From an uncultured bacterium (GTDB lineage Bacteria; Babelota; Babeliae; Babelales; Vermiphilaceae), in the NCBI GenBank assembly GCA_963695335.1, contig OY968764.1, forward strand, positions 1,056,001 to 1,120,000: a stretch of 64,000 nt of DNA, given 5' to 3'. Below, in pieces: positions 38,875 to 40,095 of this stretch (its first letter is position 1; each line of letters starts with the position of its first letter). Made by a program: the position numbers and the translations under genes. Under the pieces are notes generated by a model. The model was not told the origin of the DNA, did no database searches, and was given only the letters and a program-made list of their open reading frames with translations.

Positions 38875-40095
38875 TTATAACGGATCGGTCCCTTGCTCTA
38901 AAATCGCAAGATATTTTTTGTACACATATGTCCGATCCCGCTTTTTGCCCGTAATCTCTTCCACAATATTCAATTGTTGCAAACGCTCCAATGCTGTTCG
39001 CACCGTAGGTTCTGTCATCTCAAGTTCTTTTGCAAGTAAACTAACCGATACTTGCGGCAACTTTTTTAAATATTCAAAAACTTCTTCGGCTGAAAATCGC
39101 GCTTTGCCTAAACTTTCAATTGCTTGCATATCTTTTGCAAACAAACGATTAATTTTTTCTATAGTTAAAGATGCCTGCTTTGCAGTAATTGCAACACCTT
39201 GCAAAAAGAATTCAAGCCACGTTTCCCATGTACCTTGCTCTCTAACCTGCTGCAACAAGTCATAATACAATCGACGATTCTGCTTTAAATATAAACTGAG
39301 ATACAAAATAGGATCAGCAAGAAAACCGCTTTCGCATAACATAAAAATGATAAGCAATCGCCCAACTCTGCCATTCCCATCTAAAAAAGGGTGAATCGTC
39401 TCAAACTGCACATGCACCAATCCTGCCTTAATCAAAATATGATATGGACATTCTTCGTCATATAAAAATTTTTCTAAATCAGATAAACACTCTTTAAGAT
39501 ATTCAGGTGATGGAGGAACAAATAAAGCATTGCCTGGCCGTGAACCACCAATCCAATTTTGCGATTTTCTAAATTCACCCGACTTCGCCAAGGCTTCTTC
39601 GGGCAGGCCTGGTGCTTTATGCTTCCCACGTCCCCCACGCAGAAGTACGTCATGAATTTCCCGTATTAAACGTAAACTTAAAGAAAAATCTTCTTTTATG
39701 CGCTTTAATCCATACATAATCGCTTCAACATAATGCGATACTTCTTCCACATCCTCAATAGCAACCTGAGGTTTTTGCTCCCTACTTCGCCAAGGCTTCG
39801 AAGGGCGCGCGTGCTCAAATAACATCAAATCAGCAAAGGAACTTTGCGTTCCTTCTATTTGAGATGATAAAAGCGCTTCTTTGCGCACATACATATAAAT
39901 GAATAACGATTTATTTTGAGCAAATTTTACACTAGCGTTCAAATTTGCAATAGCTTCAATCGCTTGATTTAAAATAGGATATAACTTCTCTACTTCTAAA
40001 GAGATTGGTGGTAACTTTTTAGGCACATACGCTTTATAATACGCCCCCGTTATGCCTTGCTTTACATACGTCCCAATTCTCTTTTTAATATCCAT
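38875..40095 (-). CDS. fic: Fic-family protein with C-terminal HTH, carrying two in-frame palindrome insertions
   Basis: EALLSSQIEGT inhibitory motif; HPFLDGNGRVGR catalytic motif; C-terminal HTH. Confidence 0.95.
   Translation of the reverse strand: MDIKKRIGTYVKQGITGAYYKAYVPKKLPPISLEVEKLYPILNQAIEAIANLNASVKFAQNKSLFIYMYVRKEALLSSQIEGTQSSFADLMLFEHARPSKPWRSREQKPQVAIEDVEEVSHYVEAIMYGLKRIKEDFSLSLRLIREIHDVLLRGGRGKHKAPGLPEEALAKSGEFRKSQNWIGGSRPGNALFVPPSPEYLKECLSDLEKFLYDEECPYHILIKAGLVHVQFETIHPFLDGNGRVGRLLIIFMLCESGFLADPILYLSLYLKQNRRLYYDLLQQVREQGTWETWLEFFLQGVAITAKQASLTIEKINRLFAKDMQAIESLGKARFSAEEVFEYLKKLPQVSVSLLAKELEMTEPTVRTALERLQQLNIVEEITGKKRDRTYVYKKYLAILEQGTDPL
39578..39607. repeat. Family B element inserted in frame in fic
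   Basis: cccgacttcgccaaggcttcttcgggcagg, 30 bp, adds LPEEALAKSG. Confidence 0.85.
39781..39810. repeat. Family B element inserted in frame in fic
   Basis: cctacttcgccaaggcttcgaagggcgcgc, 30 bp, adds ARPSKPWRSR. Confidence 0.85.

What the first reader, a model, noticed from the sequence alone, without database searches (positions are those of the whole stretch)
39578..39810. Two separate 30-bp palindromic elements inserted in frame inside one fic gene
Seen: 39781..39810 adds ARPSKPWRSR between LFEH and EQKP, and 39578..39607 adds LPEEALAKSG within KAPG|EFRKSQNWIGG. Both share the core cttcgccaaggcttc, which matches the intergenic family B hairpins. Both are exactly 10 codons, are read in different frames of the element, and leave SSQIEG and HPFLDGNGR intact. 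Established: homologous Fic proteins have a contiguous PGEFRxxQNWIG, and Rickettsia palindromic elements are a precedent for coding insertions but are generally longer. Inference: a very small mobile hairpin that adds peptide to proteins, with selection keeping only in-frame events.
Basis: partly seen in the sequence, partly recalled or inferred. Interest (0 to 1): 0.8.

Follow-up and report, generated by a model that had tools for sequence, protein, structure and literature searches.

The report
Tiny hairpins repeatedly hitting one gene
A fic enzyme gene of a small-genome bacterium carries two real 30-base hairpin insertions that each add ten amino acids, and one of the two spots has been filled four or five separate times in relatives, likely by a tiny DNA-cutting enzyme whose gene sits beside the same hairpin.

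Summary
Confirmed. Both 30-nt inserts are clean 10-residue gaps against 119 homologs and against the DNA of five same-genus genomes. They belong to a fixed-length family: 6-bp covarying stem, 14-nt conserved centre, 4-nt tag. It has 98 copies in this Babeliales-like genome and occurs in many phyla.

New here: the KxPG|EFR site is filled on 4-5 separate tips of the Fic tree by different variants, and one shared origin without losses is rejected (AU p about 1e-58).

Being in frame comes mostly from the built-in 30-nt length. Selection appears to act on the reading register (46 of 72 coding copies use one of six). A relative carries an in-frame dimer that splits the catalytic motif.

The same hairpin lies just upstream of ~80-aa GIY-YIG genes (5 of 7 within 150 nt), the likely mobiliser; this is untested.

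Short REPs inserted in frame, even twice per ORF, are published (Di Nocera 2013). This family's core was in no paper searched. The scan has already reported the family in this genome and in others. Verdict: new variant of RPE/REP-like coding palindromes.

The parts
38875..40095 (-). fic gene, 406 aa, Fic_N + Fic + HTH, SoFic-like (class II type)
   Evidence: below the NCBIfam SoFic equivalog cut-off (149 vs 550 bits)
39780..39809 (+). Insert 1: 30-nt hairpin unit (6-bp stem, 14-nt centre, tag CGCG), read on the minus strand as ARPSKPWRSR (residues 96-105). Filled only in this lineage.
39578..39607 (+). Insert 2: 30-nt hairpin unit (tag CAGG), read on the minus strand as (G)LPEEALAKS(G) (residues 163-172), at the recurrent KxPG|EFR site
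39850..39867 (-). SSQIEG, the inhibitory-helix-type motif, intact; 13 residues separate it from insert 1
   Evidence: sequence; invariant columns; role of the glutamate from PMC3667792 passages
39367..39393 (-). HPFLDGNGR Fic signature, intact here; split by a 57-nt element dimer in G010 (P0013, P0129)
52091..52120 (+). Non-coding family member fused to the 3' end of tRNA-His (52018..52093), the position it takes in the nuclease cassettes
2585..2614 (-). Non-coding family member nested inside another hairpin repeat family

Best explanation
The two inserts are copies of a gene-less 30-nt DNA hairpin that has landed in this fic gene twice, and at one spot 4-5 times across relatives, and is likely spread in trans by the ~80-aa GIY-YIG nuclease whose gene it precedes.

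Shown: unit = 6-bp covarying stem + conserved centre + 4-nt tag; no constant target duplication; weak target preference W|Y; separate tips carry different variants at the same base.

Inferred: the nuclease would recognise the tag-first strand as single-stranded DNA, as SsnA does with NTS, and the hairpin would be copied or moved into nicks. The 30-nt length makes any insertion frame-neutral. Host selection then filters on stop codons, on the peptide made and on the position in the protein. The KxPG|EFR site is likely hit repeatedly because invariant codons keep a favoured target inside a tolerant loop just before the predicted flap region. The peptides are most likely neutral passengers.
For: Census by weight matrix: 98, 35 and 86 copies in G000, G010 and G008; 0 in the reversed-genome control. 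Stem pairs are Watson-Crick in 121-170 of 182 unique copies with several pair types; inner pairs in 176-178 of 182.

Recurrence: 4 carriers among 20 close homologs need 4 changes, and one clade is rejected at p-AU 1.3e-58. With cluster members and a fifth carrier (P0141) the count is 4-5 changes. G010's insert is its genome's commonest variant (5 exact cores of 35) and has no match within 1 mismatch among G000's 98. P0004 has a different peptide (AVPDEALAKT) at the same place.

Nuclease link: 5 of 7 small GIY-YIG genes of the L022/L023 type in the three genomes have a copy within 150 nt, against about 3% expected per gene; the other two have nested or changed-loop hairpins there. In G005 the hairpin before the nuclease gene equals the insert-1 core, and in G083 it differs from the insert-2 core at one base (these loci were picked by the element). 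Among 25 same-family genomes, 15 of 17 with the nuclease have 5 or more copies, against 1 of 8 without (kin are not independent).

Gene still under constraint: 32 synonymous vs 5 changed codons against ~92% relatives (40 of 65 listed differences).
Against: No activity, intermediate or excision product was observed. Only 1 of 158 loci from other phyla and viral contigs had a weak GIY-YIG hit within 300-500 nt, so most copies stand alone. G007 has 19 copies but no nuclease match with this query. The genome also holds three Y1 (IS200-type) and three IS110 transposase genes.

The 6-base target model ranks the hot spot 4th of about 2300 positions in two empty alleles but only 218th in the allele that shares the carriers' proline codon, so the hot spot is not fully explained. 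Empty coding sites do not fold better than controls (p 0.89). Counts of changes on a tree cannot tell gains from losses.
Confidence: 0.55

Rival explanations
1. The insertions are real and independent, but another enzyme moves the hairpin (an HUH/Y1 transposase or a recombinase). The GIY-YIG protein only binds or cuts it, as SsnA does in restricting incoming DNA.
For: A tag plus hairpin without target duplication is typical of Y1/RAYT systems (established knowledge). G000 has three Y1 genes. For SsnA, cleavage and control of transformation were shown; mobility was only hypothesised (PMC11893778 parts 2-5).
Against: The Y1 elements have their own, different end hairpins, and only one of three lies near a copy (315 nt). 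G008 has 86 copies and no tblastn hit to this Y1 protein. Two of three IS110 genes lie 196 and 695 nt from a copy, consistent with both using the same host repeat as earlier scan notes say; I did not test that.
Confidence: 0.2
2. Site 2 was filled once in an ancestor, then lost precisely many times, and the surviving copies were rewritten by gene conversion with other copies in each genome.
For: Three of five carrier lineages give nearly the same peptide (GLP[AEV]EALAK[AS]G). P0138 differs from its near-identical cluster mates only at the element (…AEASA at its end), as conversion or replacement would give.
Against: It needs many precise losses: 22 of 30 in-group rows are empty, including the sisters of four carrier lineages. 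P0004's insert has a different 5' part.
Confidence: 0.1
3. A filled allele spread sideways between Babeliales lineages as a short recombination patch (homing-like), so the tips are not independent insertions.
For: Four of five carrier lineages have K in G[K]HK upstream where several empty sisters have Q or M (noticed after the fact). P0001 has a cluster of unique changes at residues 31-60 that looks like a recombined tract.
Against: P0141 is a carrier with GMHK. G000 and G010 flanks are no more alike than empty alleles by eye. Each insert has its own stem variant.
Confidence: 0.1
4. The hairpin is removed or skipped at the RNA level, so the protein is unchanged.
For: It would explain why P0013 and P0129 both keep an open frame with a split catalytic motif.
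Against: The strong register bias makes sense only if the insert is translated. No Rfam family above noise. The mRNA-strand fold is unremarkable. A Rickettsia RPE insert in guanylate kinase is translated (as summarised in PMC2229807).
Confidence: 0.03

Closest known systems
Rickettsia palindromic elements (RPE; Ogata 2000, 2002, seen only as summarised in PMC10969869 and PMC2229807 passages)
   Same: Non-autonomous palindromic repeats inserted in frame in conserved genes of an intracellular-type bacterium; probably near-neutral.
   Different: RPE-1 type is 105-150 bp with terminal inverted repeats. This unit is 30 nt with a one-sided tag, spans many phyla, and has a candidate enzyme beside it.
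GTAG- and CGTC-tagged REPs (Di Nocera 2013, PMC3733652; passages, section 15 and a supplement search)
   Same: 20-40-nt tag-plus-hairpin repeats, dimers, intragenic in-frame copies, sometimes two per ORF; one case of similar sites in recB of two Xanthomonas species.
   Different: Tags here are CCTG, CGTG and CTTG, and the stem has an internal loop. The peptides and core were not in the four supplements held as text. The consensus figure could not be seen.
Ssn nucleases with NTS/SRM repeats (Chenal 2025, PMC11893778; parts 1-5 of 11 and passages)
   Same: A single-domain GIY-YIG gene flanked by an oriented ~30-nt hairpin that also occurs in many solo copies.
   Different: 0 of 219 copies match the SRM motif. 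The hairpin lies upstream in a tRNA/tmRNA-anchored cassette rather than on both sides. At least a third of copies are in genes, against 2% for NTS.
SoFic / class II Fic proteins (PDB 3ZCN, 3EQX; PMC3667792 passages)
   Same: Host protein: fold (TM 0.70), signature motif, N-terminal inhibitory glutamate, C-terminal HTH.
   Different: About 25% identity and below the equivalog cut-off; activity untested.

Membership tests
RPE-like coding palindromes (as a kind) | multi-copy palindromic repeat found both between and inside genes | tested here: met
   219 copies in three genomes, at least 72 in ORFs with homologs on both sides
RPE-like coding palindromes (as a kind) | in-frame insertion absent from orthologs | tested here: met
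RPE-like coding palindromes (as a kind) | insert is translated and the protein works | not testable with these tools
   indirect only: 32 synonymous vs 5 changed codons, register bias
RPE-1 (Rickettsia family proper) | 105-150 bp with terminal inverted repeats | tested here: not met
   30 nt with a one-sided tag; RPE sizes
GTAG/CGTC REP superfamilies | terminal tetranucleotide GTAG or CGTC | tested here: not met
   the ten commonest tags among 219 copies include neither; CCTG 82, CGTG 30, CTTG 23. Some variants hold GTAG internally.
Ssn/SRM system | repeat matches the SRM degenerate motif | tested here: not met
   0 of 219
Ssn/SRM system | small single-domain GIY-YIG gene beside the repeat | tested here: met
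   80-81 aa, PF01541; 5 of 7 within 150 nt
Ssn/SRM system | nuclease belongs to cd10448 | not testable with these tools
   no CDD library here; nearest solved sequences are UPF0213 BH0048 and an SLX1 homolog; 'SLX1-like' is recalled, not tested
Ssn/SRM system | sequence-specific cleavage of single-stranded DNA | not testable with these tools
   needs biochemistry
MITE | terminal inverted repeats and target-site duplication | tested here: not met
   previous 4 = last 4 in 1 of 219; first 2 = next 2 in 43 of 219; exact 30-nt gain
REP-RAYT (REPtron) | Y1 transposase gene flanked by the repeat | tested here: not met
   the three Y1 genes have different end hairpins; no homolog of that protein in G008

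The most novel reading that the evidence does not exclude
A transposase-free insertion system spread over many bacterial phyla. An ~80-aa GIY-YIG nuclease of a tRNA-anchored cassette copies its own 30-nt upstream hairpin into new sites. The hairpin's length (ten codons) and near-open reading registers have evolved so that it can colonise protein genes, and some sites such as Fic KxPG|EFR are true hot spots that can serve as the assay target. This would supply a testable engine for RPE-like 'selfish DNA in proteins'.
Probability: 0.33. Interest if true: 0.8.

Novelty: new variant of a known kind. Interest (0 to 1): 0.52.

Why it matters
How short palindromes get into bacterial protein genes has been open since the Rickettsia RPEs. 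This case gives a minimal donor (30 nt), a candidate enzyme (80 aa) and a natural target hit 4-5 times, which together define a simple cleavage and insertion assay. It also shows that identical short indels in orthologs can be homoplasy, a warning for using indels as phylogenetic markers in these lineages. The fic gene itself is probably just a tolerant host.

Tried and rejected
Tag-target pairing (as in IS200/IS605 guides): no excess over shuffled pairings in 160, 219 or 72 copies. The only exact cases are the two fic site-2 copies.

Hairpin at the empty target: not seen in four natural empty alleles, and 52 coding sites fold no better than controls.

Relaxed selection on the whole fic gene: P0001 evolves faster than its sister (20 vs 6 unique changes, p 0.009), but most changes cluster at residues 31-60. 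P0004 and P0018 show no speed-up; P0013 is mixed.

A K codon upstream as target determinant: broken by P0141.

A 31-nt class (tag CACG then G) being kept out of genes: 2 of 11 are coding against 70 of 208 for the rest; too few to decide.

Structure model: both inserts fall in segments with pLDDT under 50 (79-111, 157-189), but those segments include conserved neighbours, so the model does not place the loops. The control fold of an empty homolog without an alignment was useless (pLDDT 35).

Other blanks: Rfam, noise only. Plasmids, no match. No RNA holder listed. No insert in the fic genes of 80 metagenome loci at 49-63% identity. Viral contigs: 40 loci with the element, only weak partial nuclease hits. 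DNA for carriers P0004, P0018 and P0141 was not available, so their element variants are inferred from peptides.

Literature: nine searches; the exact core strings were in 0 papers. Subscription papers, figures and bioRxiv supplements were not searchable and could hold this family.

Full report
1. Observation. The minus-strand ORF 38875..40095 encodes a 406-aa Fic_N-Fic-HTH protein whose closest solved relatives are SoFic structures. Among 120 aligned homologs the only internal insertions of six or more residues are six element-derived ones in four proteins, two of them in the query. DNA of five same-genus genomes shows exact 30-nt gaps; G010 is filled at site 2. A contig from a coded soil run, about 93% identical, spans site 1 without a gap (X1 and X2 may be one data set). 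The host is taken to be Babeliales from the name given to a cluster mate of a close homolog (P0134) and from earlier scan notes.

2. Anatomy. The unit is a 6-bp stem, a conserved 14-nt centre and a 4-nt tag. A weight matrix finds 98, 35 and 86 copies in G000, G010 and G008 and none in the reversed genome. In 182 unique copies the six stem pairs are Watson-Crick in 121-170 cases with several pair types. Three inner pairs hold in 176-178, including a C-G/T-A swap (104/74). The positions between the two stems do not pair. On the tag-first strand these positions read as purine-rich internal loops, which could form sheared G.A pairs (recalled, untested). Single copies do not beat shuffles in folding energy. 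There is no constant target duplication. In 160 copies from many phyla and viral contigs the base before is A/T in 118 and the base after is C/T in 146.

3. In frame by design or by selection. The length is nearly fixed. The commonest filled-minus-empty difference is 30 (10 of 33 pairs with an empty partner), with most others multiples of three in poorly aligned loops. At least 72 of 219 copies lie in ORFs with homologs on both sides. This is a lower bound: the filter missed, for example, G010's fic copies. Of the 72, 46 use one register (xSFAKAxxDR-like), against 13-14 expected from stop codons and target bias (chi-square p of 1e-18 or less; some copies are shared between genomes, so this overstates). 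A second register that is almost always open is used only 4 times. Selection therefore appears to act on the peptide rather than only on the frame. The fic inserts use rarer registers (2 and 9 of 72). Exceptions to harmlessness exist. A +29 copy lies in a PEP-synthase-like gene with several frameshifts. A 57-nt dimer splits the Fic signature in P0013 and P0129; that motif is required for adenylylation (PMC3667792 passages). The query gene looks constrained: 32 synonymous and 5 changed codons against ~92% relatives (40 of 65 differences listed).

4. The recurrent site. KxPG|EFR is filled in P0001, P0004, P0013 and P0018 among the 20 closest homologs. With insert columns removed they sit on four separate tips, and holding them together costs 197 log units (p-AU 1.3e-58). 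Cluster members and fragments add P0141 and give 4-5 changes; joining P0141 to P0004 is not rejected (p 0.07). G010's insert is the commonest variant of its own genome and has no match within one mismatch in G000. P0138 shows another variant at the site and P0165 breaks off there into unrelated residues; both may be contig ends. A simple target model puts the site 4th of about 2300 positions in two empty alleles and 218th in a third. With a 5-10% tolerant fraction the chance of four or more of seven events at this site runs from about 1e-6 to 0.01. A favoured short target kept by invariant codons in a tolerant loop is therefore a fair but incomplete explanation. Other shared sites between genomes appear.

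5. Candidate enzyme. G000 has three small GIY-YIG genes. Those of the L022/L023 type (80-81 aa) are found in 56 of 80 family genomes. They usually follow a cassette of tRNA or tmRNA 3' end, forward hairpin, spacer and tag-first hairpin, 40-80 nt before the start codon. Five of seven such genes in three genomes have a matrix hit within 150 nt (about 3% expected each). The cassette hairpin in G005 equals the insert-1 core, and that in G083 is one base from the insert-2 core. By analogy with SsnA, which binds an oriented hairpin only as single-stranded DNA and cuts upstream of its tag (PMC11893778), I infer that the nuclease acts on this hairpin. That it mobilises the hairpin is a further inference. 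A Y1 transposase is the main rival, but its ends differ and G008 has no homolog of it.

6. Relation to known systems. It works like RPE and intragenic REP elements. It fails the tests for RPE-1, GTAG/CGTC REPs, MITEs and SRM (see membership). Two short palindromes in one ORF is already reported for Opitutus and Rickettsia. The core sequence was in no paper searched, and I found no paper linking this nuclease group to such repeats.

7. Earlier scan notes already describe this family and its nuclease link in this genome and in other genomes, and one describes hot spots in dnaX. They are not independent support. What I tested myself and add is the tree-tested recurrence at one base of fic, the register bias with a control, and the correction that frame neutrality is built into the element.

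8. Verdict. A real feature and a new variant of a known kind; interest 0.52.

Noticed in passing
G010:C1 about 814037-814093 (L175:14037-14093; P0013, P0129): A 57-nt tail-to-tail element dimer splits HPFLDG|NGR, yet two diverged alleles keep an open frame; the protein may be kept for a non-catalytic (HTH) role.
   Followed up: partly
G000:C1:1141300-1144400: PEP-synthase-like gene with at least four frameshifts and a +29 element copy, intact in G008 and G010.
   Followed up: partly
window 52018..52150 and G000:C1 204826-205342, 894800-895370: Hairpins fused to tRNA 3' ends, with or without a downstream small GIY-YIG gene; L023 is preceded by a duplicated cassette with a one-base-longer loop.
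   Followed up: partly
window 2573-2888, 25061-25155, 34693-34855, 36270-36357, 42876-43027, 49152-49289, 53992-54143, 58831-59017: Several other hairpin repeat families; a second group of small GIY-YIG genes (L021 type) is flanked on both sides by inverted copies of such repeats, and the 30-nt element often nests inside them.
   Followed up: partly
L213:11113 (G008): An insert of the site-2 type in a 1146-aa ORF at the same local context (TTCA|CC, peptide GLPDEALAKSGE); the ORF carries a second copy, and its G000 ortholog has three.
   Followed up: partly
window about 39915..40005 (Fic residues 31-60): Thirteen of 20 changes unique to this protein, plus a short deletion, cluster here, as from a recombined tract.
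   Followed up: no
G000:C1:369218, 574578, 1166633: Three near-identical IS200-type elements (Y1 gene only, with hairpin ends), apparently recent.
   Followed up: partly
L279-L392 (several, e.g. L321, L352, L365, L372): In other phyla the element often appears inserted in the loop of CGTC-type (NTS-like) hairpins; judged by eye from the flanks.
   Followed up: no
window 43585-43980 and 62645-62711: A 32-nt inverted pair 332 nt apart before mutS, and a perfect 30-nt-arm AT-rich palindrome.
   Followed up: no
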